Shown: positions 3,897 to 61,400 of the stretch, piece after piece
How positions within the stretch are numbered: the stretch's first letter is position 1
Layout of the letters: each line of letters opens with the position of its first letter
Assembly: GCF_044647545.1 (NCBI RefSeq)
Contig: NZ_CP172818.1
Strand: one strand, 5' to 3'
DNA: 64,000 bases
Origin: Escherichia coli
GTDB taxonomy: Bacteria > Pseudomonadota > Gammaproteobacteria > Enterobacterales > Enterobacteriaceae
The notes under the pieces: generated by a model
Database searches by the model: none
Told to the model about the DNA's origin: nothing
What the model saw: the letters and a program-made list of their open reading frames with translations, nothing else
Program-made: the position numbers and the translations under genes

Positions 3897-4054
3897 TGCC
3901 TTCATTAATGTGCGCGTGATCACACCAGCCGTTTAGCGCAACGATCATTGATACTCCCTATCTTTCAGTTCAACTCATAACTTATTGATATACATTTATA
4001 ATCTTCATGAATGTTTATATTCAGAATTCATAATCCTGAATTATATTAAATAGA

Positions 4055-4105: not shown

Positions 4106-4206
4106 AATAAAATGAACTTCATAGAATAGTATCCAAATGTGCTTTTTTTTGGATAACGGCACTTATTGATATATTCATGAAGATTATAATCACAAGGGAA
4201 TACATA

Positions 4207-5322: not shown

Positions 5323-5365
5323 TCAGCCAACTCGCTGCGGCGTGTTACTGTAAAACTTAACACTA

Positions 5366-5402
5366 GCCTGAGTTCGTCCCTCATCGAACTCAGGCTTTTT
5401 TA
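5366..5402 (+). terminator. Rho-independent terminator downstream of porin gene
   Basis: GCCTGAGTTCG-tccctca-CGAACTCAGGC perfect 11-bp stem followed by TTTTTTATT. Confidence 0.7.
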
Positions 5403-5913
5403 TTGGCATTTCATCTCCATCTGCGGCACACGCAATTGCCGAAGCATATCGATACAGCACCTTACCCTGCCCCTCCTGGCACAATAACATCAACCAGCTA
5501 CTCTTCAAGCTAACACCCAAATGCATTTCTTTATGAATTAATCCGTAACAAACACGCTTCCCATATAGAAATATTTGCAAAAATAGTGCATGAAATAAGC
5601 TTTTTCTCTACCAATCCGCGATATAAATATTCATCAGCACCACAATATTCCACAGCACTAAATCTCTCCCCGCCACCCCGTACCTCTGATAATGGTCTAA
5701 AATCATTGAGGCCACTTGCGACGACGTTACTCAATAAGGAAAATTTGGCGTGAATAATATTCAACACCAGTGCAGCATCATCATTACATACTTACACCCG
5801 CCGACTACCGCTTTCGATATATTGACTCAATTTTCCAGCCTGGTTAAAAATAGCGACCAGCTCAGTCGCAAATATAGTGACTACCCTAACTAAGCAACAA
5901 TAAGGAATACACT

Positions 5914-6765
5914 ATGACTGTTCAAACAAGTAAAAATCCGCAGGTCGATATTGCTGAAGATAATGCATTCTTCCCTTCAGAATATTCGCTTAGCCAATAT
6001 ACCAGTCCTGTCTCTGATCTTGATGGCGTGGACTATCCAAAACCGTATCGCGGTAAACATAAAATTCTGGTGATCGCCGCGGACGAACGTTATTTGCCGA
6101 CCGATAACGGAAAACTGTTCTCGACCGGTAACCATCCGATTGAAACGTTGCTGCCGTTGTATCATCTCCATGCTGCAGGTTTCGAATTCGAAGTGGCGAC
6201 CATTTCCGGCCTGTTGACCAAGTTTGAATACTGGGCTATGCCGCACAAAGATGAAAAAGTAATGCCATTCTTTGAGCAGCATAAATCGTTGTTCCGCAAT
6301 CCGAAGAAACTCGCGGATGTTGTCGCCAGCCTCAACGCTGATAGCGAATATGCAGCAATCTTTGTTCCTGGTGGTCATGGCGCACTTATTGGTTTACCTG
6401 AAAGCCAGGACGTAGCTGCCGCTTTACAGTGGGCAATCAAAAATGACCGTTTTGTTATCTCCCTTTGCCACGGCCCGGCGGCTTTTCTGGCGCTTCGCCA
6501 CGGCGATAACCCACTGAATGGTTATTCCATTTGCGCATTCCCAGACGCCGCAGACAAACAAACGCCAGAGATAGGCTATATGCCGGGTCATCTCACCTGG
6601 TACTTCGGCGAAGAGCTGAAGAAAATGGGCATGAACATTATTAATGACGACATCACCGGGCGAGTACATAAGGACCGTAAAGTTCTCACCGGCGACAGTC
6701 CTTTCGCAGCGAATGCGTTGGGTAAACTGGCGGCGCAGGAAATGCTGGCAGCTTACGCGGGTTAA
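5914..6765 (+). CDS. hchA: Hsp31 glyoxalase/chaperone (DJ-1/PfpI family)
   Basis: 283-aa ORF MTVQTSKNPQVDIAEDNAFFPSEYSLSQYTSPVSDLDGVDYPKPYRGKHKILVIAADE... matches HchA. Confidence 0.85.
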   Translation: MTVQTSKNPQVDIAEDNAFFPSEYSLSQYTSPVSDLDGVDYPKPYRGKHKILVIAADERYLPTDNGKLFSTGNHPIETLLPLYHLHAAGFEFEVATISGLLTKFEYWAMPHKDEKVMPFFEQHKSLFRNPKKLADVVASLNADSEYAAIFVPGGHGALIGLPESQDVAAALQWAIKNDRFVISLCHGPAAFLALRHGDNPLNGYSICAFPDAADKQTPEIGYMPGHLTWYFGEELKKMGMNIINDDITGRVHKDRKVLTGDSPFAANALGKLAAQEMLAAYAG

Positions 6766-11229: not shown

Positions 11230-11261
11230 GGCCGGATGCGGCGCGAGCGCCCTATCCGGCC
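11230..11261. repeat. REP (repetitive extragenic palindromic) element
   Basis: GCCGGATGCGGCG...CCTATCCGGCC matches REP consensus. Confidence 0.6.
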
Positions 11262-11396
11262 CACACAGATCGCATCAAGTTATGTTTCGTTTGTCATCAA
11301 CCTTTCATCACCAGAATAATTTATTTTATTTCAATAAGATAGGAAAATACACCTGAGAAAACTATGCTCTCGTTTCCTAAGAGTTATTGCATTTCG

Positions 11397-11453: not shown

Positions 11454-12104
11454 TTGGCGATTCGTCTTCATAAACTGGCTGTTGCTTTAGGCGTCTTTAT
11501 TGTTAGCGCTCCTGCCTTTTCGCATGGTCATCACTCACACGGCAAACCCTTAACAGAGGTCGAACAAAAAGCTGCTAATGGTGTTTTTGATGATACCAAT
11601 GTACAAAACCGAACGCTCAGTGACTGGGATGGAGTCTGGCAATCCGTTTATCCTTTACTGCAAAGTGGCAAACTTGACCCCGTCTTTCAGAAGAAAGCGG
11701 ATGCAGATAAAACCAAAACATTTGCTGAAATTAAAGATTATTATCGCAAAGGTTATGTGACAGATATCGAGATGATTGGCATTGAGGACGGCATTGTTGA
11801 ATTCCATAGACATAATGAAACAACATCCTGTAAATATGATTACGATGGATACAAAATACTCACCTATAAATCAGGCAAGAAAGGCGTTCGTTACTTATTC
11901 GAATGTAAAGATCCTGAAAGCAAAGCCCCTAAATATATTCAATTTAGCGATCATATAATTGCACCACGAAAATCATCTCATTTTCACATTTTTATGGGTA
12001 ATGATACCCAACAGTCTTTATTGAATGAAATGGAAAACTGGCCAACGTATTATCCATATCAGTTGAGTAGCAAAGAAGTGGTCGAGGAGATGATGTCTCA
12101 TTGA
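11454..12104 (+). CDS. zinT: Periplasmic zinc/cadmium-binding protein
   Basis: 216-aa ORF with signal peptide and His-rich HGHHSHG motif. Confidence 0.85.
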
Positions 12105-12191
12105 TTTTTTGCGCTGACTTCAATTATTTAACAGAACAGTGCCTGGTAGTAACGACAATAATTTACCAAGACAAATAAATAAGACAAACTC

Positions 12192-12225
12192 AGACACGCT
12201 CATGCTTGAGACGTGTCTTTTTTAT
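12192..12225 (+). terminator. Rho-independent terminator after zinT
   Basis: AGACACG...CGTGTCT hairpin followed by TTTTTTATT. Confidence 0.6.
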
Positions 12226-44416: not shown

Positions 44417-44785
44417 GTGTCAGACACACTCTCCGGGACAACACATCCCGACGACAATCACGACCACCCCTGGTGGGGACTACCCTGCACCGTGACGCCC
44501 TGTTTCGGCGCCCGTCTGGTGCAGGAGGGTAACCGCTTGCATTACCTTGCCGACCGCGCCGGTAACAGAGGCCTGTTCAGCGATGCAGATGCGTACCCCC
44601 TGGACCAGGCCTTTCCGCTGCTGATGAAACAACTGGAACTCATGCTCACCAGCGGTGAACTGAATCCCCGCCATCAGCATACCGTCACACTGTATGCGAA
44701 GGGGCTGACCTGTGAAGCTGACACCCTCGGCAGCTGTGGTTACGTTTATCTGGCTGTTTATCCGACGCCCGAAACGAAAAATTAA
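44417..44785 (+). CDS. cbeA: Type IV antitoxin (cytoskeleton bundling-enhancing factor)
   Basis: GTG start; VSDTLSGTTHPDDNHDHPWWGLPCTVTPCFGARLVQEGNRLHYLADRAG... matches CbeA/YeeU. Confidence 0.8.
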   Translation: MSDTLSGTTHPDDNHDHPWWGLPCTVTPCFGARLVQEGNRLHYLADRAGNRGLFSDADAYPLDQAFPLLMKQLELMLTSGELNPRHQHTVTLYAKGLTCEADTLGSCGYVYLAVYPTPETKN

Positions 44786-44873: not shown

Positions 44874-45246
44874 ATGAAAACATTACCCGTATTACCCGGG
44901 CAGGCGGCGTTCTCGCCCGTCTCCTGTTACCATCTGGCAGATACTGCTCACCCGATTACTGGACCAGCACTACAGCCTTACGCTGAATGACACACCGTTC
45001 GCCGATGAACGCGTGATTGAGCAGCATATTGAGGCAGGCATTTCACTGTGTGATGCAGTGAACTTTCTCGTGGAAAAATACGTACTGGTACAACTGACCA
45101 GCCGGGATTCAGCGCCGGAACCCGTCTCAGTTAATCAACAGCATTGATATCCTCCGGGCTCGCCGGGCAACCGGTCTGATGACCCGCAGCAACTACAGAA
45201 CGGTAAATAACATTACCCTGGGTAAGTATCCGGAGGCGAAAAATGA
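44874..45246 (+). pseudogene. cbtA: Type IV toxin CbtA (YeeV), frameshifted at least twice
   Basis: [12 protein letters not shown] then frame lost; second frame [54 protein letters not shown]; third frame DILRARRATGLMTR.NYRTVNNITLGKYPEAK runs into yeeW. Confidence 0.7.
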
Positions 45247-45637: not shown

Positions 45638-45733
45638 ATATACAGAAAGGAAAACCGATAATAATGGAATGGACGCCCCGACCATGAAGCAACGGTAGGA
45701 TATTACTGATAAACCTTCCAGTGGAGGTGCGTT

Positions 45734-45813
45734 ATGGCCGTTTTAACGATTAGCATTGACCTGACAAAAAATGAATTCCAAATCCACGGTCTGGGTAGGA
45801 ACAGAAAAATCTA
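45734..45813 (+). pseudogene. N-terminal remnant of an IS110-family-like transposase (26 codons then stop)
   Basis: MAVLTISIDLTKNEFQIHGLGRNRKI resembles the xGIDxxKxxFQ.HG start of IS110-family transposases. Confidence 0.35.
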
Positions 45814-45889
45814 AGCTCAGAAAACGGATTAAAGTAAGCGTCAACGGAGCACCATATTGACGCTTATTTATTGGTGAGAACTACGTTCC

Positions 45890-46246
45890 ATGGCAGGAGT
45901 TCGTCAACACGGTTGGAGGGCCATTCCGGCAGTATGCTCAGAATATGGCGCAGATACGCTTCCGGATCGATACCGTTCAGACGGCAGGTGCCTGCTTTTC
46001 CGGCAACAAGCAGGAATCTCAGCGCTGAAGCAGGAATTAGAGGTAAAAACGCCCTACCGGGCCATGAATCACCCGGTCATTGGAGTAGTAACCAAAGCAG
46101 ATTTAGCCAGCATGGAACAAATATCTTTGGTGAAATGTTGGTTACGGGAAGCTGGAGCGCACAACGTGTTAGTAACCAGTGCGGTTAATAACAATGGAGT
46201 TACAGAACTTTTTGCCTTGCTGCATACAGAAGAAGGCTGCCGCTAA
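45890..46246 (+). pseudogene. yoeF: EutP/PduV-family GTPase C-terminal fragment
   Basis: 118-aa ORF ending ...HPVIGVVTKADLASMEQISLVKCWLREAGAHNVLVTSAVNNNGVTELFALL; lacks N-terminal P-loop. Confidence 0.55.
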
Positions 46247-46346
46247 TTTCGATAGGTTCTCAGATGAGAATGATGACGGTGATACACAGATAAGAATCAA
46301 TGAGCAATGAGGGTTGCCGGGCAACCCTCATTGAATAAAACAGGAA

Positions 46347-46676
46347 TTACTTCGCTTCGCCGTTTTTCATTTCGCCCATAGCTTTCAGCTTTTTGGAGAT
46401 ATCGCGGCGTTCTTTGGAGAGCTCGGCATTTTTGATGATGTAATCGTCAACGCGATCTTCATAGTCACCTTTCATGCTGGCGATGATGCCCTGGATTGCT
46501 TCAACGCTCATCCCTGGCTTGATGTAATCGCTCAGGTTGTCCAGCAACAGGACGCGCTTCTGGTTGTCACGGATCTTTTTCTCAACGTCCTGAATTTCAC
46601 GTTGCAGTTTGTTCTTACGACGGAACAGACGAACAAATTCCAGTACGTCCTGGAATGAAGGCTTGGTAGTTTCCAT
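46347..46676 (-). CDS. yeeX: DUF496-family protein
   Basis: Internal start [42 protein letters not shown]... Confidence 0.8.
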
Positions 46677-46847
46677 TTTTATACCCCTGATAATGTGAGA
46701 GTCGGATTCGTTTAAGCAACCGCTATTCGATAGGGCCAACATTACTCATAGCTGCCGCAGATGACAATGCTTTTATCCCTTTTCACTATCATACCCTTTA
46801 TCCTTGCTGAATCGAAGCAGCAGCAAGATGATTCTGAAGTTCAGGAA

Positions 46848-47906
46848 TTATTTGCGCAAGGCCCGGCAAATCAGATTCGATAGCAACTCAAGCTGATGCG
46901 CCGTTTCCATGTTCAGCCACACATAACCATAGATTGGTGTTTCCACAACCTTCAGGTCATGGTGGTTATTAAGCAACAGACGCAGCTCTTCCACAGCATC
47001 GTTCAATTTTTCCGTATTGGCAAAAACCGGCTGCGGATTACCTTCGTACAGCGCATGAACAAGGCTCAGCAGTATTTGCTGCATCATGTGCTGGGTATCA
47101 CGAAGTTTTTGCGCGTTCAATAACACGAAATGGCTGGGGCGCGTGGCCCAGTATGCATTGATTTGCAACTCCAGCATACAAACCAGATTGCGGTTAATGG
47201 TCTGGATACCTTCATATATCGATTTTGGAATACGGGTTTCTTTGCTGGCGGGCGCAATCAGCCCACGCATTTTCACGGCATCGGTCAGCAGTTTTTGTAG
47301 ATGGCTTTCCAGACGTGGGCGTTCGAGTAAGTTCGGTGAGAATGCAGATTGATAGACCCGATTATACTCGGTCAGACTTTTCGCCAGTTGAATGCGCCAG
47401 TGGATGAACGCCCGTTGTGGCCAGATACCGGTAAACAACATTGCCAGTAAAGAGCCGAGGATCACATCGCCGCTTCGCCATAACGCCGTATCAATTTCAC
47501 CTGTCGGGGAACCCACAACAATTGCCAGCGTCACCCCAATCAATAATCCTTGATACGGTTTCTTGCCCAGCGCCAGCCAACCGCAAAGAAACATCGCCGC
47601 CGCGCACCAGACTAACATCAGCGGTAACGAAATTAACTCCAGTTGCAGAGCGATAAGACCTAAAATCGAACCCAACACCGTACCGCCAATACGTTCGAAG
47701 GCACGAGGGACAACGTTCCCCCAGAACGAGATTGGCCCCATAATCACCACCATGGTGACCAGCGGCCAGGTGCTTTCCGGGATAGTAAACAGGCGGATAA
47801 TGAGAAAAGTGAGCAGGAATGCCAGCGCGACCCGAGTACCATGCACAATGCGGTAATGGCGGTATACCCGGATTTCAAACGGGCTTAATGACTTATCGGC
47901 ACGCAC
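46848..47906 (-). CDS. yeeA: FUSC-like inner-membrane protein
   Basis: 352-aa polytopic ORF matching YeeA. Confidence 0.8.
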   Translation of the reverse strand: MRADKSLSPFEIRVYRHYRIVHGTRVALAFLLTFLIIRLFTIPESTWPLVTMVVIMGPISFWGNVVPRAFERIGGTVLGSILGLIALQLELISLPLMLVWCAAAMFLCGWLALGKKPYQGLLIGVTLAIVVGSPTGEIDTALWRSGDVILGSLLAMLFTGIWPQRAFIHWRIQLAKSLTEYNRVYQSAFSPNLLERPRLESHLQKLLTDAVKMRGLIAPASKETRIPKSIYEGIQTINRNLVCMLELQINAYWATRPSHFVLLNAQKLRDTQHMMQQILLSLVHALYEGNPQPVFANTEKLNDAVEELRLLLNNHHDLKVVETPIYGYVWLNMETAHQLELLSNLICRALRK

Positions 47907-48103
47907 GCAGAAACTCCGTAATGAAGATTAAAAGCGCTCATAACACATCTGTCGGCCAGAAGGCGCGCCTCTGAGTTATCCGACGGACATACCGGGAACA
48001 GTGTAATTTCCCGGCAGGAGCGAAAAATTTGAAAGGCGCATCTTACTCTTTTCGCTTTCAAAAAAAGAGTGGTCTTCGCGTCAACACACCGCCCTGAGAT
48101 GAA

Positions 48104-48577
48104 TTAGTGATGTTTTGGCTGCACCGCAACATACATTTCGATATCCCAGTACCCATCTTCCGCGCCATTGTTCAAGTAAACCTCGAAGCAGGGCTTTGGT
48201 AACATTTCATAGGCACTGTCCTGCAAGAGGCTATTAAAGAACTGATACCAGGGTTTAGCAAAATCATCACCGACTACACGAGCCACCGCCACCGCATACT
48301 GACCACCTGAAATTTCTGTCAGAATGACGCCCTCACTGTTTTCGGGGAGCGTAAAGTTATTCGGCACCGTCACGACGGTGTCGCAGCGTAATTTTTCGGC
48401 GGGTGTTTCATCTGGATTGTCGTAATAGACAGCAACCCACTCCTTCGGCACAATATTTTTGCTATCTATCCACATCATCAACTGCTCAAAGCCTTTCTTT
48501 ACCGTCTGTTCCCACGGGCCAACGAGATGGAAACCTGCAACGGTACGTTTATCTTCCTGCTTAATCTCGTAGTTCAT
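48104..48577 (-). CDS. sbmC: DNA gyrase inhibitor (SOS-induced)
   Basis: 157-aa [50 protein letters not shown]...; LexA box upstream. Confidence 0.85.
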
Positions 48578-48591
48578 GACGCCCCCATTAA

Positions 48592-48611
48592 TACTGTTTT
48601 TATATACAGTA
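48592..48611. promoter_or_regulatory. LexA (SOS) box upstream of sbmC
   Basis: TACTGTTTTTATATACAGTA is a perfect palindromic CTGT-N8-ACAG LexA box. Confidence 0.75.
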
Positions 48612-48695
48612 TAGTTGCAATATTAAAACCACAAGGAATGAGTGTTGATTATGCGAGCAGACTCGCACTCCTGCCAGTCTGCTGCAAAAGAAAGG

Positions 48696-49868
48696 TCAGG
48701 CCTTATGGTGGAAATAATCACTCAGCCGGGAAAACATGCTGCCTTCCCCGACAGATTCCAGGGTAACCAGCGGCCAGTGCGCCACCTGTTTATCACGGTC
48801 GTAAAGTTCAATTTCCCCTACCCGCTGATGGGCGCTAATTGGCGCGGTGAGTTCTTTACCATCAAGGGTATATTTGGCTTTGATATGTGGAATTTCGGCT
48901 TTCGGTAGCACCATCCAGAACTCTTGTTCCGTTCCCAGGGCGATATTTTCTTTATCGCCATACCAGATGCGTTCCGTACCAACCTTTTTCCCACGGTGCA
49001 AAATTTGCACCGTAGTAAAGTTTTGTTGACCCCAACGCAGTAATTTTCTTGCCTCTTCCTCACGACCTTTTGCGCTGTCAGCCCCCATTACCACTGCAAT
49101 GAGACGACGCTGCCCATCTACAGCCGAAGCAATGAGATTAAACCCGGCACCAGAAGTATGACCCGTTTTCAGGCCGTCAACATTCATGGTTTTATCCCAC
49201 AATAACCCGTTACGGTTTTGCTGGGTGATACCGTTCCAGGTGAGGCTTTTCTCACTGTACATATGATAAAACTCGGGCTCGCCGTGGATGATAGCGCGAG
49301 AAAGCACAGCTAAATCATAAGCCGAGCTATGCTGGCCAGGTGCATCCAGACCATGCACTGTTTCAAAATGCGTATCCTTGAGATGCAGCTTCTCGGCATA
49401 GTTGTTCATCATTTCAACAAACTGCCGTTGCCCACCGGCAATATAGTCAGCCAGTGCAACACAAGCGTCATTTCCGGAATCCACAATTAAACCACGGCTT
49501 AAATCACGTACCGATACGCGATCGCCCTCTTTCAAAAACATCAGTGAAGAACCGACAAACACCGGATTATCTTTCGCCCACGCATCACGCCCCACGGTGA
49601 CAATATCGTCTGGCGTAATGCGATGACTATCGATAGCACGATCCACGACATAGCCCGTCATCAGCTTTGTCAGGCTGGCGGGATTGCGCTGTTGATGCTC
49701 ATTACCCGCGGTGAGAATCTGACCGGTGGTGTAATCCATCAATACCCAGGACCCGGCATGAATCTCTGGAGGCTGAGGTGAAAAAGGAATGTTTTCCGCC
49801 GCAAAACCAGACGATAAATTAAAAACGAACAAAGAAGCAGCAATAATAAGACGGCGTTTCAACAGCAA
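48696..49868 (-). CDS. dacD: D-alanyl-D-alanine carboxypeptidase (PBP6b)
   Basis: ORF with signal peptide, SxxK (SLTK), SGN and KTG motifs. Confidence 0.85.
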   Translation of the reverse strand: MLLKRRLIIAASLFVFNLSSGFAAENIPFSPQPPEIHAGSWVLMDYTTGQILTAGNEHQQRNPASLTKLMTGYVVDRAIDSHRITPDDIVTVGRDAWAKDNPVFVGSSLMFLKEGDRVSVRDLSRGLIVDSGNDACVALADYIAGGQRQFVEMMNNYAEKLHLKDTHFETVHGLDAPGQHSSAYDLAVLSRAIIHGEPEFYHMYSEKSLTWNGITQQNRNGLLWDKTMNVDGLKTGHTSGAGFNLIASAVDGQRRLIAVVMGADSAKGREEEARKLLRWGQQNFTTVQILHRGKKVGTERIWYGDKENIALGTEQEFWMVLPKAEIPHIKAKYTLDGKELTAPISAHQRVGEIELYDRDKQVAHWPLVTLESVGEGSMFSRLSDYFHHKA

Positions 49869-50070
49869 ACCCTCAGGTGTTTCAAATAGCTGTTCTTTTT
49901 ACGGAAATACTTATGAACTGGCTGGAATAAAGTGCAAGAAAATGTGACTACTATCTCATTTTTATCTGACATGATCTGTTGCCACTCGCTGCCAAATTGT
50001 CGCGCTAAAGCTGATTAGCACGGTGATATTTGATACTCTGGCAGACAGCAGAAATAACGGATTTAACCTA

Positions 50071-51498
50071 ATGATGAATGACGGTAAGCAACAACCTACC
50101 TTTTTCTTTCACGATTACGAAACCTTTGGAACGCACCCCGCGTTAGATCGCCCTGCACAGTTCGCAGCCATTCGCACTGATAACGAATTCAATGTCATCG
50201 GCGAACCCGAAGTCTTTTACTGCAAGCCCGCGGATGACTATTTACCCCAGCCTGGAGCAGTATTAATTACCGGTATTACCCCGCAGGAAGCACGGGCGAA
50301 AGGAGAAAACGAAGCCGCGTTTGCCGCCCGTATTCACTCGCTTTTTACCGTACCGAAGACCTGTATTCTGGGCTACAACAATGTGCGTTTCGACGATGAA
50401 GTCACACGCAACGTTTTTTATCGTAATTTCTACGATCCTTACGCCTGGAGCTGGCAGCATGATAACTCGCGCTGGGATTTACTGGATGTTATGCGTGCCT
50501 GTTATGCCCTGCGCCCGGAAGGAATAAACTGGCCTGAAAATGATGACGGTCTACCGAGCTTTCGCCTTGAGCATTTAACCAAAGCGAATGGTATTGAACA
50601 TAGCAACGCCCACGATGCGATGGCTGATGTGTACGCCACTATTGCGATGGCGAAACTGGTAAAAACGCGTCAGCCACGCCTGTTTGATTATCTCTTTACC
50701 CATCGTAATAAACACAAACTGATGGCGTTGATTGATGTTCCGCAGATGAAACCCCTGGTTCACGTTTCCGGAATGTTTGGGGCATGGCGTGGCAATACCA
50801 GCTGGGTGGCACCGCTGGCGTGGCATCCTGAAAATCGCAATGCCGTAATTATGGTGGATTTGGCAGGAGACATTTCACCATTACTGGAGCTGGATAGCGA
50901 CACATTGCGCGAGCGTTTATATACCGCAAAAGCCGATCTTGGCGATAACGCCGCCGTTCCGGTTAAGCTGGTGCATATCAATAAATGTCCGGTACTGGCC
51001 CAGGCGAATACGCTACGCCCGGAAGACGCTGAGCGTTTAGGGATTGCTCGTCAACACTGCCTGGATAACCTGAAAGTGTTGCGCGAAAACCCGCAAGTAC
51101 GCGACAAAGTTGTGGCAATTTTTGCAGAAGCTGAACCGTTTACACCATCAGATAATGTAGATGCACAGCTTTATAATGGCTTTTTTAGCGACGCCGATCG
51201 TGCAGCAATGAAAATCGTGCTGGAGACTGAACCGCGTAATTTACCGGCTCTGGATATCACCTTTGTTGATAAGCGTATCGAGAAACTCCTGTTCAACTAC
51301 CGCGCCCGCAACTTCCCCGGCACGTTAGATGACAACGAGCAGCAACGCTGGCTTGAGCACCGCCGCCAGGTCTTCACACCCGAGTTTTTACAAGGCTATG
51401 CAGAAGAGATTCAGATGCTGGCGCAGCTGTATGCCGACGATAAAGAAAAAGTGGCGCTGTTAAAAGCGCTTTGGCAGTACGCGGAAGAGATTGTCTAA
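50071..51498 (+). CDS. sbcB: Exodeoxyribonuclease I
   Basis: Internal start MMNDGKQQPTFFFHDYETFG... (DEDDh exonuclease); track ORF extended 16 aa upstream. Confidence 0.85.
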   Translation: MMNDGKQQPTFFFHDYETFGTHPALDRPAQFAAIRTDNEFNVIGEPEVFYCKPADDYLPQPGAVLITGITPQEARAKGENEAAFAARIHSLFTVPKTCILGYNNVRFDDEVTRNVFYRNFYDPYAWSWQHDNSRWDLLDVMRACYALRPEGINWPENDDGLPSFRLEHLTKANGIEHSNAHDAMADVYATIAMAKLVKTRQPRLFDYLFTHRNKHKLMALIDVPQMKPLVHVSGMFGAWRGNTSWVAPLAWHPENRNAVIMVDLAGDISPLLELDSDTLRERLYTAKADLGDNAAVPVKLVHINKCPVLAQANTLRPEDAERLGIARQHCLDNLKVLRENPQVRDKVVAIFAEAEPFTPSDNVDAQLYNGFFSDADRAAMKIVLETEPRNLPALDITFVDKRIEKLLFNYRARNFPGTLDDNEQQRWLEHRRQVFTPEFLQGYAEEIQMLAQLYADDKEKVALLKALWQYAEEIV

Positions 51499-51540
51499 TG
51501 TGAAGCCTCCGCCGCTGGTACGGCGGAGGACAATTTTGAG

Positions 51541-51768
51541 TCAGGCTTTTTGAACGGTGATGCTCCACGCTGCATCGCCAATCTGCTGATAATCGGTGAT
51601 GGCATGTCCTTCTTCTGCCGCCCACTGTGGGATTGCTTCAGTTGCCTGGGTGCAATCAAACTCAATTACCAACTCATCGCCGCTGGCCATTTCTGCCAGT
51701 GCTGCTTTTGCTTCTATGAGTGGAAACGGACAGACCTGCGTCACCACATCCAGCTTTTTAATCGCCAT
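51541..51768 (-). CDS. yeeD: TusA-like sulfurtransferase
   Basis: 75-aa ORF with CPFP motif (VCPFPLIEAK). Confidence 0.8.
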   Translation of the reverse strand: MAIKKLDVVTQVCPFPLIEAKAALAEMASGDELVIEFDCTQATEAIPQWAAEEGHAITDYQQIGDAAWSITVQKA

Positions 51769-51781
51769 CTTTACACCTTAC

Positions 51782-52840
51782 TTAATTTGCCGCAGCAGTT
51801 GCCAGTCGCGCCTTACGCTGCGGTCGAACATACACAAGCCAGGACGCAGTCCAGACTCCGAGAATCATAAATACAAGGCCAATCCAGCCCTGCCAGGTCA
51901 TCATTGCAGTCATGACCAGTCCATTACCGATAGAGCAACCACCTGCAATGCTGGCACCGAAGCCCATCAGTACACCACCTAACCCGCTACGTAATGTTGT
52001 TTGTGCATCAGCAGCGCGAACGCGGAACTCACGGCTCGCTTTGGCGGCAATAAATGACCCCACGAAGCTCCCTAACACCAGGAAAACGCCCCAGTTAATG
52101 TATTTCACGTCACCCGCGACCAGAAATTGCAGAATATTGGCCGTTGGGGAAGTGATGCCTAACCCAAACATACGTCCGGTTGCTTCACTCAGGGGCCAGG
52201 CTAAAAGCGCAATCAAACCGATGAGTACAGCTGTGACAAAGGGATGCCAGCGTTTTTCAAACAGAATATGAGCGATCCCGGTTCGGCGCGGCGGTAAGGT
52301 CGCGACTTTGAGTTTTGGCTTCTTCAACTCTTTCATCACCACCCAGAGCGTTATCACCAGCAAAACGGCAACCAACGGCCACACAGACAAATTAAAAGTA
52401 TCAGCAATAGAGTTATGTTCAGTAGTGTAGTGCTGCAAGGTTTGATTTAAACCACTGGCGTGTGGAGAACGCATCACCGCACTCATCACCATATAAGTGA
52501 AAAGCGCGATCCAACTGCCGATCAATCCCTCACCCGCGCGATACCAGGTCCCGGTGGCACATCCACCCGCCAGAACAATTCCCAGCCCGAAAAGATACCC
52601 ACCTATAACAGTACCAAGCCACGGGAACGCCCCGGCTTCGTAAGTCAGTAGGCCCGCCTGAATTAACGCAAAAACCCCCACGCTTTGTACCGAAATTGCA
52701 ATCAGCAAGGCGTAAAACATGCGATTATTTTTCGCGACATACATATCGCGAAAACCACCTGTCAGGCAAAAACGCCCACGCTGCATGACAAATCCCAGCA
52801 GAGCACCACAAATTAGCCCGCTTAATATCATTGAAAACAT
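51782..52840 (-). CDS. yeeE: YeeE/YedE-family thiosulfate-transporter-like membrane protein
   Basis: 352-aa polytopic ORF immediately upstream of yeeD (operon). Confidence 0.8.
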   Translation of the reverse strand: MFSMILSGLICGALLGFVMQRGRFCLTGGFRDMYVAKNNRMFYALLIAISVQSVGVFALIQAGLLTYEAGAFPWLGTVIGGYLFGLGIVLAGGCATGTWYRAGEGLIGSWIALFTYMVMSAVMRSPHASGLNQTLQHYTTEHNSIADTFNLSVWPLVAVLLVITLWVVMKELKKPKLKVATLPPRRTGIAHILFEKRWHPFVTAVLIGLIALLAWPLSEATGRMFGLGITSPTANILQFLVAGDVKYINWGVFLVLGSFVGSFIAAKASREFRVRAADAQTTLRSGLGGVLMGFGASIAGGCSIGNGLVMTAMMTWQGWIGLVFMILGVWTASWLVYVRPQRKARLATAAAN

Positions 52841-52963
52841 AAATTAATTAACCAGATGAATGTTAATAAGGAAATTATTCATGACTGGTGGAATGCAGAC
52901 CAATAACCAAATTCTCTAAATTAGAACAAATGGTTATTAATGAGGATTTCGATAAAAAAGAAT

Positions 52964-52998
52964 AAAAAAACCGGAGCCAAATATTCATTCGACTCCGG
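52964..52998 (-). terminator. Rho-independent terminator after plaP
   Basis: CCGGAG...CTCCGG hairpin with U-run on minus strand. Confidence 0.55.
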
Positions 52999-53018
52999 TT
53001 GATTATTAGAAAAGATGA

Positions 53019-54377
53019 TTATGCTACGTCTTCGTACTGCGGAACCGGGTTACGGAAGCTCTTGGTTACGCATGCCAGGTAAATCAGACCGATAGCAGCC
53101 CAGATCAGACCCAGAACCATTGAGCTTTCTTCCAGGTTAACCCACAGCGCACCAACGGTCAGCGCACCACACATCGGCAGGAACAGATACTGGAAGTGAT
53201 CTTTCAGCGTCTTGTTACGCTTCTCACGGATCCAGAACTGCGAGATGACCGACAGGTTAACGAAGGTGAACGCCACCAACGCACCAAAGTTAATCAGCGC
53301 CGTTGCCATTACCAGGTCAAAGTTGATTGCCAGCAGGGCAATCGCGCCAACCAGGATGATATTCATCGCCGGAGTACGCCATTTCGGGTGTACATAACCG
53401 AAGAAGCTTTTCGGGAACACGCCGTCACGACCCATTACGTACATCAGACGCGCAACGCCTGCGTGCGCCGCCATACCGGACGCCAGTACGGTAATGGTGG
53501 AGAAGATCAGCGCGCCAACCTGGAACGCTTTACCCGCAACGTACAGCATGATTTCAGGCTGTGACGCATCCGGATCTTTAAAGCGAGAGATATCCGGGAA
53601 GTACAGCTGCAGGAAGTAAGTTGCAAAGATGAAGATCATGCCGCCAATCAGCGCGGTCAGGAAAATCGCACGCGGGATCACGCGCTCTGCATCTTTGGTT
53701 TCTTCCGACAGGTTGCTGATGCCGTCAAAGCCGGTAAAGGAGAAGCACAGGATTGTCGCCCCGGTAATCATCGGGATAACATGCGCATCGCCAGACCAGA
53801 ACGGACGAGTGCTCGCCAGCGTACCCGCTCCTTCACCTTCAAATACGCCATAAACAACCATGCCCAGGATCACCGCGATCAGCACTACCTGCAACACGAC
53901 GATTACAGTGTTGAAGTTCGCTACGGATTTCAGACTACGCAGGTTAAAGGCGGTCATAAAGGCCACCAGCGCCACCACAAACATCCACGATGGAATGGAA
54001 GGCACCAGAGCTTCAAAATAGATTTTCGCCAGCAGAATGTTGATCATCGGCGCGAACAGATAGTCGAGCAGAGAAGACCAACCCACCATAAAGCCGACAG
54101 TCGGGCTAATGGATTTCTGGGCGTAAGTGTATGCAGAGCCAGCAGAAGGATAGCGGCGGACCAGCTTCCCGTAGCTCAGAGCCGTAAACAGGATCGCAAT
54201 CAATGCGAACGCATAGGCTGTCGGCACATGACCATCCGTGAGGCCTGAAACGATACCAAAAGTATCAAACAGCGTCATCGGCTGCATATAGGCAAGACCC
54301 ATCATTACAACCGGAACTAACGTAAGCGTTTTACGCAATTCCACGCGAGAGGTGTTTGGAGTAACGTTATGCGACAT
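53019..54377 (-). CDS. plaP: Putrescine importer (APC family)
   Basis: Start [20 protein letters not shown]...; 12-TM amino acid/polyamine permease. Confidence 0.85.
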
Positions 54378-54524
54378 GGTCATTCTCCTTTACGGTGATA
54401 ACCGTCGCGTAAGCAAAAAATTGCCCCATTTTTTTGGATTCCTCAGCGACAACAACTGTCGATTTTTAGTAAATATCTATCCGGTACGAAGCCCGGCCTC
54501 TTGGTATGAATGATTGGTTTGAAG

Positions 54525-54561
54525 CAAAAAATAACCGACGCTGATGAAACGTCGGTTTTTA
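54525..54561. terminator. Bidirectional terminator-like hairpin between plaP and yeeY
   Basis: A-run, ACCGACG-ctgatgaa-CGTCGGT, T-run. Confidence 0.5.
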
Positions 54562-54643
54562 GTCATTTTTTGACAGCGGCGCATTGTGCCTAAATGGGGG
54601 GGAAATGACAAGAGAATGAGAGGCTTGTCATAATAATTTTTCT

Positions 54644-55573
54644 TTAAATGGCTGATTTTCCGTCATCAGATTTTGCATAAACACCGGCGATCGCACTATT
54701 TGCTAAAATTTCATCCCGCCACCAGCCGCTGGCAAGCCCTGCGGTCTGTTCATTCCAGCCAATCCAGACGGGTTCAAAGAGAGTTTGGGCGACCACTTTC
54801 TTCTCGATTAACGCGCCACTATCGAGAAAACGTTGCGCCAGATAACGGGGTAAATAGCCGCAGCCGAGGCCGCTAATTTGCAGCTCCAGCTTGGTTTTAA
54901 AATCGAAAACGGTAATGGCTTCTTGTTCGTCGAGAAGTTGTGAGGCCGTAGAAGCGCCTGCCTGCGCAGTGTCCCCCACCACAATCGCCCGATATCGCTT
55001 AATGATACGACGGTTTAACGGCTCTTCTTCCTGGGCTAACGGATGATGAGGCGCGACCGCAAAGACTTGTTCCAGATCGCCCAACCGCGAGAAACCAAAT
55101 TCACTGGAAGATGGTGGCTCATGCATCGCGCCAACAATAATATCCGCTCGCCCCTGAGTCAGGGCATCCCAGGAACCACCGAGTACGCCATTGATAAACT
55201 TCAGGCGCGTCACGCTATGATGTTGATAAAAAGCTTCAATCAGTGGCGCAAGCAGAGAAAAAGGAAACGTGTCGTCCACGCCAATCACCAGCTCGTTTTC
55301 CCAGCCTTCATGCAGTTTGATCGCCTGCTTTTCCAGTTCCCGCACGGTATGCAGAACTTCCCGCCCTTTCTCTAATAACATTTTTCCGGTGCGGGTGAAT
55401 TTAGCGCGGTGACCGCTACGATCAAGCAATTGAATATTAAGGTCGCTTTCCAGCTTGTGAACGGTGTAACTCAGAGCGGACGGCGTCTTGTAGAGTTTGG
55501 CCGACGCCGCCGCAAAACTGCCTTCTTTTTCTAAGGCATCGAGGATCATCAACACATCCAGCAGTGGTTTCAT
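54644..55573 (-). CDS. yeeY: LysR-family transcriptional regulator
   Basis: Start MKPLLDVLMILDALEKEGSFAAASAKLYKTPSALSYTVHKLE... (HTH). Confidence 0.8.
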   Translation of the reverse strand: MKPLLDVLMILDALEKEGSFAAASAKLYKTPSALSYTVHKLESDLNIQLLDRSGHRAKFTRTGKMLLEKGREVLHTVRELEKQAIKLHEGWENELVIGVDDTFPFSLLAPLIEAFYQHHSVTRLKFINGVLGGSWDALTQGRADIIVGAMHEPPSSSEFGFSRLGDLEQVFAVAPHHPLAQEEEPLNRRIIKRYRAIVVGDTAQAGASTASQLLDEQEAITVFDFKTKLELQISGLGCGYLPRYLAQRFLDSGALIEKKVVAQTLFEPVWIGWNEQTAGLASGWWRDEILANSAIAGVYAKSDDGKSAI

Positions 55574-55618
55574 ACACGCCCCCTTGCAGTGCATGCGGCG
55601 TCCTGCTGGCGTGATCGT

Positions 55619-56443
55619 TTACTCCAGCGGCATTACCAGCGGATCGGGATACTGGTATTCAAACCCCAGTTCATTACAAATCCGACTGCCATCAATAATC
55701 TTACCTTTGCCGCTGTCCAGACTATTTCTGAACTGCGGAGGTTCCAGCCCCAGTAAACGGGCCATCTGCGGATAGAAAACATTACGCGCAGGGTGAGCTG
55801 GCGCACATATATTATAGATGTGTCCGCCTTTAGGTGCCTGTAACAACAGAGTGATAGCGCCAATAACATCTTCTAAATGGACTAAATTAACACCATGTTC
55901 ACCATCAGGCGCGGTTTTTCCGGCAAAGAAGCGTCCGGGATGACGTCCCGGTCCGACAAGGCCCGCAAGACGCAGAATATCGACCGAAGTACCGGGTAAA
56001 TTGTGCAGCCAGTCTTCGAGTTCTTCTAATACTCTTCCACTGTTGGTTACCGGATTACGCGGGGTAGTTTCTTTCACCGTGCCTTGCGCGTCGCCATAGA
56101 CAGACGTTGAGCTGGTGAAAATAATGCGGGGAATACGATGAGCCAGCGCGCTATCCACTAACTCTTGTACCGCTTGTAAATAGAACTCATCGCCGGGGCC
56201 GCTACGACGTGCCGGAAGCGTAATGACCAGCGCATCGGCATCCATCAGGGCATCCAGATCGTCAGAATCGCAAACTAACTCAGGCTCCATGCGAAGCAGA
56301 TAGCTATCAATGCCACTCATTCGGGCCGCTTCGACACCATCTTGTGTGGTTTTACTCCCGGTGACTTGCCAGCCTCGCGCTGAAAGTGACATCGCCAGCG
56401 GCATGCCTAACCACCCTAACCCGACAATTGCGACCTTTTTCAT
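55619..56443 (-). CDS. yeeZ: NAD-dependent epimerase/dehydratase-family protein
   Basis: 274-aa ORF with Rossmann GxxGxxG (VAIVGLGWLG). Confidence 0.8.
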   Translation of the reverse strand: MKKVAIVGLGWLGMPLAMSLSARGWQVTGSKTTQDGVEAARMSGIDSYLLRMEPELVCDSDDLDALMDADALVITLPARRSGPGDEFYLQAVQELVDSALAHRIPRIIFTSSTSVYGDAQGTVKETTPRNPVTNSGRVLEELEDWLHNLPGTSVDILRLAGLVGPGRHPGRFFAGKTAPDGEHGVNLVHLEDVIGAITLLLQAPKGGHIYNICAPAHPARNVFYPQMARLLGLEPPQFRNSLDSGKGKIIDGSRICNELGFEYQYPDPLVMPLE

Positions 56444-56582
56444 CCGTTATCTCCTGATACACCTAAGATCTATAAGGCTACGCTAGCGTATCAAAACTGA
56501 CAATTCATTCTATGAATGAGACGTTCATACCACACAAGAAAATTATGAGAGAAAGATCAATATTGAACTTTACCAACATTTG

Positions 56583-56618
56583 TAGACCAGATAAGGCATT
56601 CACGCCGCATCCGGCAGG
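56583..56618. repeat. REP element
   Basis: Reverse complement CCTGCCGGATGCGGCGTGAATGCCTTATCTGGTCTA matches REP consensus. Confidence 0.6.
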
Positions 56619-56861
56619 AACCAAAGCCCACTTTAGTTACAGAACACAATGTTCTTGAGGGTTTTAAAGACATATTTTCACGATTTCTTTTCTAACGTAG
56701 TCAAAACCACCTAACGCCAGTCACTCCAGGCCCCCTCCTTTCCCCGCTCATTCATTAAACAAATCCATTGCCATAAAATATATAAAAAAGCCCTTGCTTT
56801 CTAACGTGAAAGTGGTTTAGGTTAAAAGACATCAGTTGAATAAACATTCACAGAGACTTTT

Positions 56862-56912
56862 ATGACACGCGTTCAATTTAAACACCACCATCATCACCAT
56901 CATCCTGACTAG
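56862..56912 (+). CDS. hisL: his operon leader peptide (7 consecutive His codons)
   Basis: ATG ACA CGC GTT CAA TTT AAA CAC CAC CAT CAT CAC CAT CAT CCT GAC TAG = MTRVQFKHHHHHHHPD. Confidence 0.9.
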   Translation: MTRVQFKHHHHHHHPD

Positions 56913-56976
56913 TCTTTCAGGCGATGTGTGCTGGAAGACATTCAGATCTTCCAGTGGTGCATGAACGCATGAGAAA

Positions 56977-57010
56977 GCCCCCGGAAGATCACCTTCCGGG
57001 GGCTTTTTTA
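56977..57010 (+). terminator. his attenuator terminator
   Basis: GCCCCCGGAAG-atcacc-TTCCGGGGGC followed by TTTTTTATT. Confidence 0.85.
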
Positions 57011-57057
57011 TTGCGCGGTTGATAACGGTTCAGACAGGTTTAAAGAGGAATAACAAA

Positions 57058-57957
57058 ATGACAGACAACACTCGTTTACGCATAGCTATGCAGAAATCCG
57101 GCCGTTTAAGTGATGATTCACGCGAATTGCTGGCGCGCTGTGGCATTAAAATCAATCTTCACACCCAGCGCCTGATCGCGATGGCAGAAAACATGCCGAT
57201 TGATATTCTGCGCGTGCGTGACGACGACATTCCCGGTCTGGTAATGGATGGCGTGGTAGACCTTGGGATTATCGGCGAAAACGTGCTGGAAGAAGAGCTG
57301 CTTAACCGCCGCGCCCAGGGTGAAGATCCGCGCTACTTTACCCTGCGTCGTCTGGATTTTGGCGGCTGCCGACTTTCACTGGCAACGCCGGTTGATGAAG
57401 CCTGGGACGGCCCGCTCTCCTTAAACGGTAAACGTATCGCCACCTCTTATCCTCACCTGCTCAAGCGTTATCTCGACCAGAAAGGCATCTCTTTTAAATC
57501 CTGCTTACTGAACGGTTCTGTTGAAGTCGCCCCGCGTGCCGGACTGGCGGATGCGATTTGCGATCTGGTTTCCACCGGTGCCACGCTGGAAGCAAACGGC
57601 CTGCGCGAAGTCGAAGTTATCTACCGCTCGAAAGCTTGCCTGATCCAACGCGATGGCGAAATGGAAGAATCCAAACAGCAACTGATCGACAAACTGCTGA
57701 CCCGTATTCAGGGTGTGATCCAGGCGCGCGAATCAAAATACATCATGATGCACGCACCGACCGAACGTCTGGATGAAGTCATCGCCCTGCTGCCAGGTGC
57801 CGAACGCCCAACTATTCTGCCGCTGGCGGGTGATCAACAGCGCGTAGCGATGCACATGGTCAGCAGCGAAACCCTGTTCTGGGAAACCATGGAAAAACTG
57901 AAAGCGCTGGGTGCCAGTTCAATCCTGGTCCTGCCGATTGAGAAGATGATGGAGTGA
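57058..57957 (+). CDS. hisG: ATP phosphoribosyltransferase
   Basis: Start [34 protein letters not shown]...; 299 aa. Confidence 0.9.
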
Positions 57958-57962
57958 TCGCC

Positions 57963-60333
<2,371 letters not shown>

Positions 60334-60334
<1 letters not shown>

Positions 60335-61400
60335 TGAGTCAGAAGTATCTTTTTATCGATCGCGATGGAACCCTGATTAGCGAACCGCCGAGTGATTTTC
60401 AGGTGGACCGTTTTGACAAACTCGCCTTTGAACCGGGCGTGATCCCGGAACTGCTGAAGCTGCAAAAAGCGGGCTACAAACTGGTGATGATCACTAATCA
60501 GGATGGTCTGGGAACACAAAGTTTCCCGCAGGCGGATTTTGATGGACCGCACAACCTGATGATGCAGATCTTCACCTCGCAAGGCGTGCAGTTTGATGAA
60601 GTGCTGATTTGTCCGCACCTGCCCGCAGATGAGTGCGACTGCCGTAAACCGAAAGTAAAACTGGTGGAGCGTTATCTCGCTGAGCAAGCGATGGATCGTG
60701 CCAACAGTTATGTGATTGGCGATCGCGCGACCGATATTCAACTGGCGGAAAACATGGGTATTAATGGTTTACGCTACGACCGCGAAACCCTGAACTGGCC
60801 GATGATTGGCGAGCAACTCACTAAACGAGACCGTTACGCCCACGTAGTGCGCAACACCAAAGAGACGCAAATTGACGTCCAGGTGTGGCTGGATCGTGAA
60901 GGTGGCAGCAAGATTAACACCGGCGTTGGCTTCTTTGATCACATGCTGGATCAGATCGCCACCCACGGCGGTTTCCGCATGGAAATCAACGTCAAAGGCG
61001 ACCTCTATATCGACGATCACCACACCGTCGAAGATACCGGCCTGGCGCTGGGCGAAGCGTTAAAAATTGCCCTCGGCGATAAACGCGGTATTTGTCGCTT
61101 TGGTTTTGTGCTGCCGATGGACGAATGCCTTGCCCGCTGCGCGCTGGATATCTCTGGTCGCCCGCACCTGGAATATAAAGCCGAATTTACCTACCAGCGC
61201 GTGGGCGATCTCAGCACTGAAATGATCGAGCACTTCTTCCGTTCGCTCTCTTACACTATGGGCGTGACGCTACACCTGAAAACCAAAGGTAAAAACGATC
61301 ATCACCGTGTAGAGAGCCTGTTCAAAGCCTTTGGTCGCACCCTGCGCCAGGCCATCCGCGTGGAAGGCGACACCCTGCCCTCGTCAAAAGGAGTGCTGTA

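What the first reader, a model, noticed from the sequence alone, without database searches (positions are those of the whole stretch)
56444..56861. No yefM-yoeB toxin-antitoxin ORFs between yeeZ and hisL
From memory, K-12 carries the yefM-yoeB TA pair between yeeZ and the his leader. Here that interval is about 420 bp with a REP element and no ORF resembling YefM or YoeB. Together with the broken cbtA, this strain appears depleted in functional TA toxins in this region. I cannot verify the K-12 arrangement without a database.
Basis: established knowledge. Interest (0 to 1): 0.25.

Follow-up and report, generated by a model that had tools for sequence, protein, structure and literature searches.

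The report
Common TA-free yeeZ–hisL spacer allele
This E. coli strain has no yefM-yoeB toxin-antitoxin genes between yeeZ and the histidine operon, but that is an ordinary, already published variant carried by about one in five E. coli genomes and it looks like the original state of the site, not a loss.

Summary
The yeeZ–hisL spacer here is 418 bp (56444-56861). It holds one REP element and nothing resembling YefM or YoeB. K-12 has yoeB-yefM at exactly this site, in an 867-bp spacer.

A 659-bp K-12 cassette (yoeB, yefM and its promoter) is replaced here by 210 bp of unrelated sequence. That sequence is homologous to the spacer of E. albertii, two other Escherichia lineages and 1192 of 5426 complete E. 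coli genomes, including BL21-type, O157:H7 and MS6198. The cassette is in 4218 of 5426 genomes, once each, and the two counts add up to almost all genomes. None of 75 non-Escherichia Enterobacteriaceae loci has a TA next to yeeZ; where hisL could be located their spacers are about 155-179 bp. So the window carries the ancestral-type allele, not a deletion scar. Iguchi et al. 2011 already reported it for O157 Sakai.

cbtA, 11 kb away, is indeed a pseudogene, but that is an independent and common state.

One odd point remains. Against near-identical relatives, every difference falls in 56520-56718: one REP and its flanks are replaced by 36 orphan nt, and 20 nt are inserted. Whether this is real or an assembly error is unresolved.

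Interest is low.

The parts
55619..56443 (-). yeeZ (SDR-family epimerase-like gene); protein identical to K-12 YeeZ
   Evidence: ORF list; 0 amino-acid differences from K-12 and BLR(DE3).
56444..56519 (.). Left part of the spacer, shared by all alleles. It holds strongly conserved sequence upstream of yeeZ, with a possible yeeZ promoter (TTGTCA-N17-TAGCCT on the - strand) and the palindrome ATTCATTCTATGAAT.
   Evidence: 98.7% identical to K-12 spacer 1-76. Conserved as far as Salmonella and Citrobacter. The promoter reading is my inference; the simple scan did not flag it.
56520..56555 (.). 36 orphan nucleotides private to this genome. They replace 63 nt of the common TA-free allele: the left REP of the REP pair plus its flanks.
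   Evidence: Alignment to near-identical relatives L097-L099 and MS6198. No match in 5426 E. coli genomes or in JGI metagenome contigs. Only chance hits in plasmids and phages. No more similar to the replaced sequence than shuffled versions are.
56556..56729 (.). Escherichia-specific spacer segment, homologous to the TA-free allele of E. coli, E. albertii and other Escherichia. In K-12-type strains this segment and the one before it are replaced by the yefM-yoeB cassette.
   Evidence: Alignments. Window 53017-60434 aligns in one piece with E. albertii, E1V33 and 'E69' at 92-94%.
56582..56615 (-). REP (repetitive extragenic palindromic) element, the only one left of the REP pair seen in relatives
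   Evidence: Exact match to the pattern GCCGGATGCGGCGTNNNNGCCTTATCYGGYCTAC, 0 expected by chance. I wrote that pattern from memory of the REP consensus while reading this element, so the exact match here is not fully independent. The one other window copy (11231-11264, 3 mismatches) is an independent instance. Folds as a hairpin, -17.2 kcal/mol, z = -1.57. Weak Rfam naRNA4 (REP-derived) hit at 56585-56621, below threshold.
56699..56718 (.). Private 20-nt insertion, AGTCAAAACCACCTAACGCC as placed by the alignment (or the equivalent CAAAACCACCTAACGCCAGT, since the flanking AGTCA repeat makes the placement ambiguous). It imperfectly repeats the flanking CTAACG..AGTCA motif.
   Evidence: Absent from L097-L099, MS6198, BLR(DE3), O157:H7, E. 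albertii and the other Escherichia. No exact match in metagenome contigs.
56730..56861 (+). Right part of the spacer, shared by all alleles. It holds the his operon promoter region (-35 TTGCTT at 56794-56799, -10 TAGGTT at 56818-56823, with an A/T-rich stretch upstream).
   Evidence: 100% identical to K-12 spacer 736-867. The core is conserved in Salmonella and Citrobacter. The hexamer assignment comes from established knowledge of the his promoter and was not tested here.
56862..56912 (+). hisL leader peptide (MTRVQFKHHHHHHHPD)
   Evidence: Sequence read directly; same as the annotated hisL in K-12 and relatives.
56888..57011 (+). His leader / attenuator RNA
   Evidence: Rfam RF00514, 131.6 bits against a gathering score of 49, E = 1.7e-23.
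44874..45241 (+). cbtA pseudogene (type IV TA toxin of a CP4-44-like cryptic prophage). The upstream antitoxin gene cbeA (44417-44782) is intact.
   Evidence: tblastn splits CbtA across two reading frames. The nucleotide alignment shows deletions of 2, 1 and 1 nt relative to K-12, with a stop after about 37 codons.

Best explanation
The interval is an ordinary divergent-promoter spacer between yeeZ and the his operon, in the TA-free allelic form. Shown: Enterobacteriaceae outside Escherichia have a spacer of roughly 155-179 bp with no REP and no TA. Escherichia gained about 263 bp containing a pair of inverted REPs. In most E. coli and in E. whittamii, about 217 bp of that addition was later replaced by a 659-bp module made of the yefM promoter/operator, yefM and yoeB. 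Inferred: the module landed between the yeeZ and his promoters without touching either. The window's lineage (MS6198-like backbone) carries the form without the module. At this locus there is therefore no YoeB ribosome-dependent mRNase, no YefM autorepressor, and no read-through from the yefM promoter into yeeZ (inferred). The his promoter, hisL and the attenuator are intact and identical to K-12. On top of this, the window has a private, unexplained local rearrangement inside the spacer that removed one of the two REPs.
For: K-12 gene order. Junctions of the replacement. 1192 of 5426 E. coli genomes have the TA-free spacer and 4218 of 5426 have the cassette, once per genome and never on plasmids, summing to 5410. 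The spacer aligns with E. albertii, E1V33 and MOD1-EC7003; 'E69' is collinear with the window across the spacer in a single blastn alignment. Salmonella and Citrobacter spacers are 162 bp. 0 of 75 non-Escherichia loci have YefM or YoeB beside yeeZ, with spacers of 155-179 bp wherever hisL was located. E. whittamii has the cassette at the same junctions, 96.7% identical in nucleotides. His_leader is intact. The backbone is identical to MS6198, which has the same TA-free arrangement. Published precedent for Sakai and for REP indels in yeeZ-hisL: PMC3158064. TA modules as horizontally acquired promoter-plus-ORF units next to core genes: PMC5120126. No TA system conserved across four reference E. 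coli strains: PMC7167474.
Against: Both alleles carry unique sequence, so the polarity (TA replacing the REP pair rather than the reverse) rests on outgroups, not on a target-site signature. E. whittamii also carries the cassette, so the insertion could predate E. coli, and the TA-free E. coli alleles could have been regained by recombination. The effects on yeeZ transcription are inferred, not measured. The private 36-nt and 20-nt pieces have no identified origin.
Confidence: 0.85

Rival explanations
1. Secondary loss. The window's lineage once had yefM-yoeB and lost it, either by deletion or by allelic replacement through homologous recombination in the recombination-prone his-rfb neighbourhood. 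It would therefore be genuinely 'depleted'.
For: K-12 and the window share stretches of 100% identity, including the CP4-44 prophage with IS2 in yoeA. Yet they differ at this locus, so the two alleles have been exchanged among close relatives. The immediate flanks of the spacer are 98.7-100% identical to K-12. E. whittamii carries the cassette, so the cassette is old.
Against: There is no deletion scar. The 210 bp present here are homologous to the spacer of TA-free Escherichia species, which a simple deletion cannot produce. Allelic replacement by a TA-free donor allele remains possible, but that is exchange of an old polymorphism rather than decay. The window's backbone across 46-64 kb is identical to MS6198, not to K-12.
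Confidence: 0.12
2. Assembly or sequencing artefact: the TA pair is really present in the strain and was dropped or garbled in the assembly.
For: The spacer carries private indels and 36 orphan nt found nowhere else. Another small private garbled patch with a run of C lies at 20611-20628. There are two private clustered SNPs in sbcB. The source appears to be a single 4,499,902-bp contig with otherwise unseen protein variants.
Against: The TA-free architecture itself is shared with 1192 complete genomes and with the three contigs read (L097-L099) that are otherwise identical to this part of the window. Errors could account for the private details only, not for the absence of yefM-yoeB.
Confidence: 0.03

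Closest known systems
TA-free yeeZ-hisL spacer of E. coli O157:H7 Sakai, BL21/BLR(DE3), MS6198 and about 22% of complete E. coli genomes
   Same: Same gene order (yeeZ, REP-bearing spacer, hisL), same junctions, homologous sequence, no yefM-yoeB (PMC3158064).
   Different: Those spacers are 424-426 bp with two inverted REPs. The window's is 418 bp with one REP, 36 orphan nt, a 20-nt insertion and a few small changes. The best identity to any complete genome is only 93.3%.
yefM-yoeB type II toxin-antitoxin locus of E. coli K-12 (b2017/b4539)
   Same: Same chromosomal site and same flanking 76 bp and 132 bp.
   Different: The 659-bp module (promoter/operator, yefM, yoeB) is entirely absent, with no remnant at DNA or protein level.
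Salmonella / Citrobacter yeeZ-hisL spacer
   Same: Shares the conserved sequence upstream of yeeZ and the his promoter core.
   Different: Only 162 bp (155-179 bp in the other genera measured). It lacks the Escherichia-specific addition of about 263 bp with its REPs.
Other presence/absence polymorphisms of chromosomal TA modules in E. coli (for example ccdO157 between folA and apaH, Mine et al. 2009, cited in PMC7167474; recalled from memory, not tested here)
   Same: A small TA module sits in an intergenic region of the core genome in some strains, while other strains have a short TA-free spacer.
   Different: Different locus and TA family. Here the TA-free form holds its own REP-bearing sequence rather than a bare junction.

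Membership tests
YefM-YoeB type II toxin-antitoxin system | ORF encoding a YoeB/RelE-fold toxin (Pfam PF06769) | tested here: not met
   tblastn of K-12 YoeB against the whole window: best E = 1.0, scattered chance hits. Spacer ORFs have no Pfam hit, while the K-12 control scores 2.8e-43.
YefM-YoeB type II toxin-antitoxin system | Upstream overlapping ORF encoding a Phd/YefM antitoxin (Pfam PF02604) | tested here: not met
   tblastn of K-12 YefM: best E = 0.31, inside hisD. No Pfam hit among spacer ORFs; the control scores 6.1e-28.
YefM-YoeB type II toxin-antitoxin system | yefM promoter/operator DNA upstream of the pair | tested here: not met
   blastn (word size 7) of the K-12 spacer: positions 77-735 have no counterpart in 56520-56729.
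REP / BIME repeats of enterobacteria | Imperfect palindrome of about 35 nt matching the REP consensus, in an extragenic position | tested here: met
   56582-56615 (-) matches the degenerate pattern exactly, 0 expected by chance. The pattern was written from memory of the consensus while reading this element. The position is between yeeZ and hisL. Iguchi et al. list a REP in yeeZ-hisL.
REP / BIME repeats of enterobacteria | BIME arrangement: two REPs in inverted orientation separated by a short linker | tested here: not met
   Only one REP is present in the window. Relatives (BLR(DE3), O157:H7, L097-L099, E. albertii) have the second REP (TGCCTGATGCGCTCCGCTTATCAGTCCTAC) about 40 nt to the left.
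REP / BIME repeats of enterobacteria | Stable stem-loop when transcribed | tested here: inconclusive
   The - strand folds at -17.2 kcal/mol, z = -1.57; 16 of 200 shuffles fold as well.
His operon leader / attenuator | Leader peptide with a run of His codons, followed by the attenuator RNA structure | tested here: met
   hisL has 7 consecutive His codons. Rfam RF00514 scores 131.6 bits over the full model.
CbtA-CbeA type IV toxin-antitoxin system (CP4-44) | Intact toxin ORF downstream of the antitoxin ORF | tested here: not met
   cbeA is intact (122 aa, 92.6% identical to K-12). cbtA carries three frameshifting deletions with an early stop.

The most novel reading that the evidence does not exclude
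The private changes confined to 56520-56718 could be a real, very recent rearrangement at a REP pair, caught in a single genome. They comprise loss of one REP of the pair with 36 nt of filler DNA of unknown origin, a 20-nt imperfect local duplication, and a few point changes. They sit in a background that has only one other difference in 7.3 kb. If real, this would be a snapshot of how REP elements are lost or remodelled, for example by hairpin-provoked replication error or REP-directed cleavage and sloppy repair.
Probability: 0.3. Interest if true: 0.25.

Novelty: already known. Interest (0 to 1): 0.1.

Why it matters
It matters little. The result confirms that K-12's yefM-yoeB is an accessory insertion. 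About 78% of complete E. coli genomes have it and about 22% have an older-type REP-bearing spacer instead. Its absence therefore should not be read as TA decay in a given strain. It also cautions against using K-12 as the default when scoring 'missing' genes. The only open point is whether the private rearrangement of the REP pair in this genome is real.

Tried and rejected
1. I looked for any YefM or YoeB remnant by tblastn at E up to 100 with word size 2, and by blastn with word size 7. Nothing turned up.

2. I looked for the origin of the 36 orphan nt. There was no match in E. coli genomes and no exact match in metagenome contigs. Plasmids and phages gave only chance-level hits. Nothing matched elsewhere in the window or in any fetched locus. 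A 13-nt match to Yokenella and RIT691 turned out to be their hisL ribosome-binding and start region, so I treated it as chance.

3. I tested whether the 36 nt are a degraded form of the replaced REP-bearing 63 nt. The global alignment score is no better than shuffles; 233 of 500 shuffles reach it.

4. I considered a template-switch origin from the inverted repeat 56524-56547 / 56645-56668, which is 71% complementary over 24 nt. I rejected it as unconvincing because the match is not exact and does not extend.

5. I tried to recover the source genome. The exact YeeY and HisD sequences are too common and led to relatives only. The exact SbcB has no gene position on record, although the protein exists as WP_400165262.1 on one 4,499,902-bp contig. 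A whole-genome TA census of the strain was therefore not possible.

6. I considered Shigella or a non-coli Escherichia as the source because no complete E. coli genome matches 24-25 kb stretches above 97.7%. I rejected this: the backbone is 100% identical to E. coli MS6198 over 12 kb and more. The low figures come from mosaic islands.

7. The genome contigs locus labelled 'E. coli E69' (L007) is only 94% identical to the window and is not E. coli proper.

8. The simple promoter and terminator scan found nothing in the spacer. It is too strict for the known his promoter.

Full report
**What is in the window.** yeeY (54644-55573, -) and yeeZ (55619-56443, -) are followed by a 418-bp spacer (56444-56861). 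After the spacer come hisL (56862-56912, +), the His leader RNA and hisG (from 57058). Rfam finds the His leader at 56888-57011 with 131.6 bits.

**Check against K-12.** The MG1655 record has yeeZ (b2016), yoeB (b4539), yefM (b2017) and hisL (b2018) in that order, with 867 bp between yeeZ and hisL.
- blastn of the K-12 spacer against the window matches only its ends. K-12 1-76 matches window 56444-56519 at 98.7%. K-12 736-867 matches window 56730-56861 at 100%.
- The intervening 659 bp of K-12 run from 6 bp past the yoeB stop codon to 150 bp upstream of the yefM start codon. In the window they are replaced by 210 bp with no similarity to them.
- tblastn with K-12 YefM and YoeB against the whole 64 kb gives nothing below E = 0.3.
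- The five small ORFs in the spacer hit no Pfam family, while the K-12 proteins hit PF02604 and PF06769 strongly.
- A REP element lies at 56582-56615 on the minus strand. I wrote the search pattern from memory of the REP consensus while reading this element, so the exact match is not fully independent.

**How common the two alleles are.**
- Among 5426 complete E. coli genomes, 1192 cover at least 80% of the window's spacer and have no annotated feature there. They include BLR(DE3), O157:H7 and MS6198.
- The 659-bp K-12 cassette is found in 4218 genomes. It occurs at one place per genome (median), never on a plasmid, at 95-100% identity.
- The two counts sum to 5410. The population therefore splits almost cleanly into a TA-bearing allele (about 78%) and a TA-free allele (about 22%). 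TA-free strains do not carry this cassette elsewhere at megablast sensitivity.
- A few genomes have further changes, for example an IS4-family element between yefM and hisL in strain CUPF12.

**Which state is older.** A scan of species-representative genomes with YeeZ returned 80 loci.
- None of the 75 non-Escherichia loci encodes YefM or YoeB near yeeZ. These loci include Salmonella, Citrobacter, Enterobacter, Klebsiella, Kluyvera, Raoultella and Lelliottia. The yeeZ-hisG distance in them is uniformly about 365-385 bp.
- Where hisL could be located, the yeeZ-hisL spacer is 155-179 bp: 162 bp in Salmonella and Citrobacter amalonaticus.
- E. albertii, Escherichia sp. E1V33 and MOD1-EC7003 have a TA-free spacer of 424-425 bp. 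It aligns along its whole length with the E. coli TA-free allele and with the window. The mislabelled 'E69' is also TA-free and is collinear with the window across the spacer.
- Relative to Salmonella, the Escherichia spacer has gained about 263 bp, including two inverted REPs.
- Only E. whittamii has the cassette. It sits at the same junctions, with YefM and YoeB proteins identical to K-12. The nucleotide identity is 96.7%, against 89-96% in the flanks.

The simplest history has three steps: a short ancestral spacer, then an Escherichia-specific REP-bearing addition, then replacement of about 217 bp of that addition by the yefM-yoeB module in part of Escherichia. The window carries the second state. 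It is not a deletion scar. What cannot be excluded is that this lineage regained the TA-free allele by homologous recombination. K-12 and the window share stretches of perfect identity nearby, so the alleles have clearly been shuffled among relatives.

**Published knowledge.**
- Iguchi et al. [quoted passage not shown] They also report REP-associated insertions and deletions in the yeeZ-hisL spacer.
- Fraikin et al. 2020 (PMC7167474) note that no type II TA system is conserved across four reference E. coli strains. They cite work on uneven phylogroup distribution and horizontal transfer of chromosomal TAs.
- Ramisetty et al. 2016 (PMC5120126) describe chromosomal TA modules as horizontally acquired promoter-plus-ORF units next to core genes. 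They list yeeZ as probably co-transcribed with yefM-yoeB.

The finding is therefore already known.

**Function.** The left 76 bp and the right 132 bp of the spacer are common to all alleles.
- The right part holds the his promoter (assigned from established knowledge) and is identical to K-12.
- The left part holds sequence conserved across genera upstream of yeeZ. I read this as the yeeZ promoter, which is an inference.
- The module was therefore inserted between two divergent promoters without disturbing them.
- Without it, the strain has no YoeB mRNase and no YefM repressor from this locus. Presumably it also has no read-through from the yefM promoter into yeeZ.
- None of these consequences was measured here.

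**The cbtA side claim.** The CP4-44-like prophage in the window has an intact cbeA (44417-44782) and a cbtA with deletions of 2, 1 and 1 nt and an early stop. The close relative MS6198 also has a frameshifted cbtA, in a different prophage variant. Two inactive or absent toxins within 12 kb is a true description. The two have separate causes, and one of them is not a loss. Nothing can be said about the rest of the genome.

**An unexplained detail inside the interval.**
- Contigs carrying the window's exact HisD (L097-L099) and the complete genome MS6198 are essentially identical to the window from about 46 kb to 64 kb. There is 1 SNP in 7.3 kb against L099, and 2 SNPs in 10.9 kb plus 0 outside the spacer against MS6198.
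- All remaining differences cluster in 56520-56718:
  - 63 nt including the left REP are replaced by 36 nt of orphan sequence;
  - an AT is lost near 56559;
  - a few bases change at 56568-56573;
  - a C is added at 56621;
  - 20 nt are inserted at 56699-56718.
- No complete E. coli genome has this form; the best spacer identity is 93.3%.
- The orphan pieces were not found in E. coli genomes, metagenome contigs, plasmids, phages or the rest of the window.
- They are not recognisably derived from the replaced sequence.

Two other small private patches exist. One is a garbled stretch with a run of C at 20611-20628. The other is two non-synonymous SNPs 11 nt apart in sbcB, S9P and L12F. The corresponding protein, WP_400165262.1, is recorded from a single 4,499,902-bp contig. 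That contig is presumably the source genome and is not in the searchable collections.

These patches could be real private mutations, with the one in the spacer being a rearrangement at a REP pair. They could equally be local assembly errors. I cannot tell which without reads. Either way they do not affect the main conclusion, because the TA-free architecture is shared with over a thousand genomes.

**Verdict.** The feature is a known, common, ancestral-type allele. Interest is low.

Noticed in passing
window 56520-56718: In a background otherwise identical to MS6198 and to contigs L097-L099, the spacer carries a private burst of changes. 63 nt with one REP are replaced by 36 orphan nt. There is also an AT deletion, 3-4 substitutions, an added C and a 20-nt insertion. 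No source was found for the orphan sequence.
   Followed up: yes
window 50095 and 50106 (sbcB codons 9 and 12): Two private non-synonymous changes 11 nt apart (S9P, L12F). They are the only differences from MS6198 in 45642-56519. The resulting SbcB (WP_400165262.1) is recorded from a single 4,499,902-bp contig.
   Followed up: partly
window 20611-20628: A small private garbled patch with a run of about 10 C replaces GTGCTATTTACCAAACAGTTCC of MS6198. It lies at the 3' remnant of yeeJ, just before the yeeL-like glycosyltransferase gene. It could be an assembly error or a homopolymer tract.
   Followed up: partly
window 44874-45241 (cbtA) and 44417-44782 (cbeA): cbtA is a pseudogene with three frameshifting deletions while cbeA is intact. 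The 44.3-45.6 kb stretch differs from both K-12 and MS6198 at about 100 positions. Exchange with paralogous cryptic-prophage copies could explain this but was not tested.
   Followed up: partly
window 1-64000 compared with K-12 and MS6198: The window is a mosaic. The backbone is 100% identical to MS6198 at 18.5-36.2 kb and 46-64 kb. It has K-12's gene order: no yersiniabactin island, and a CP4-44-like prophage with IS2 in yoeA. Stretches at 15-17, 34-36 and 39-42 kb are 100% identical to K-12. K-12's IS5H copy is absent.
   Followed up: partly
window 12104-12284: About 1 kb of K-12 between zinT and serU, including yodB (a cytochrome b561 homologue), has no counterpart here. Only about 180 bp occupy the site.
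   Followed up: no
window 56663-56698 compared with 56798-56832: The Escherichia-specific part of the spacer contains near-copies of two pieces of the his promoter: TTTAAAGACAT resembling the -10/start region and TTTCTAACGT resembling the -35 region. They are in swapped order, which hints that the addition arose partly by duplication of promoter sequence.
   Followed up: no
window 56470-56519: Sequence upstream of yeeZ is conserved across genera (GGCTACGCYAGC ... CTGACAATTCAT), with the palindrome ATTCATTCTATGAAT, which has a T-N11-A shape. It could be the yeeZ promoter and an operator for the LysR-type regulator YeeY encoded just downstream.
   Followed up: no
loci L087, L090, L094, L096 (relatives): tsuA/tsuB (yeeE/yeeD) between plaP and sbcB are present in some E. 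coli and absent in others. The window has them. One relative (L092) has an IS200-type transposase gene there. This agrees with Iguchi et al. 2011.
   Followed up: no
locus L005 (E. coli CUPF12): An IS4-family element (IS421) is inserted between yefM and hisL in a TA-bearing strain, so the spacer is also a target for IS insertion.
   Followed up: no
locus L007 (CP089930.1, labelled E. coli strain E69): This record is only about 94% identical to the window across yeeY-hisD, similar to the other non-coli Escherichia loci retrieved (92-94%), so it is probably not E. coli in the strict sense. No E. coli representative was returned by the genome-contig scan.
   Followed up: no
window 4000-6000: This stretch is highly divergent from K-12 or not aligned to it (134 mismatches in 718 aligned bases, about 600 bases unaligned). 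Its position relative to the K-12 record was not worked out. Not examined.
   Followed up: no
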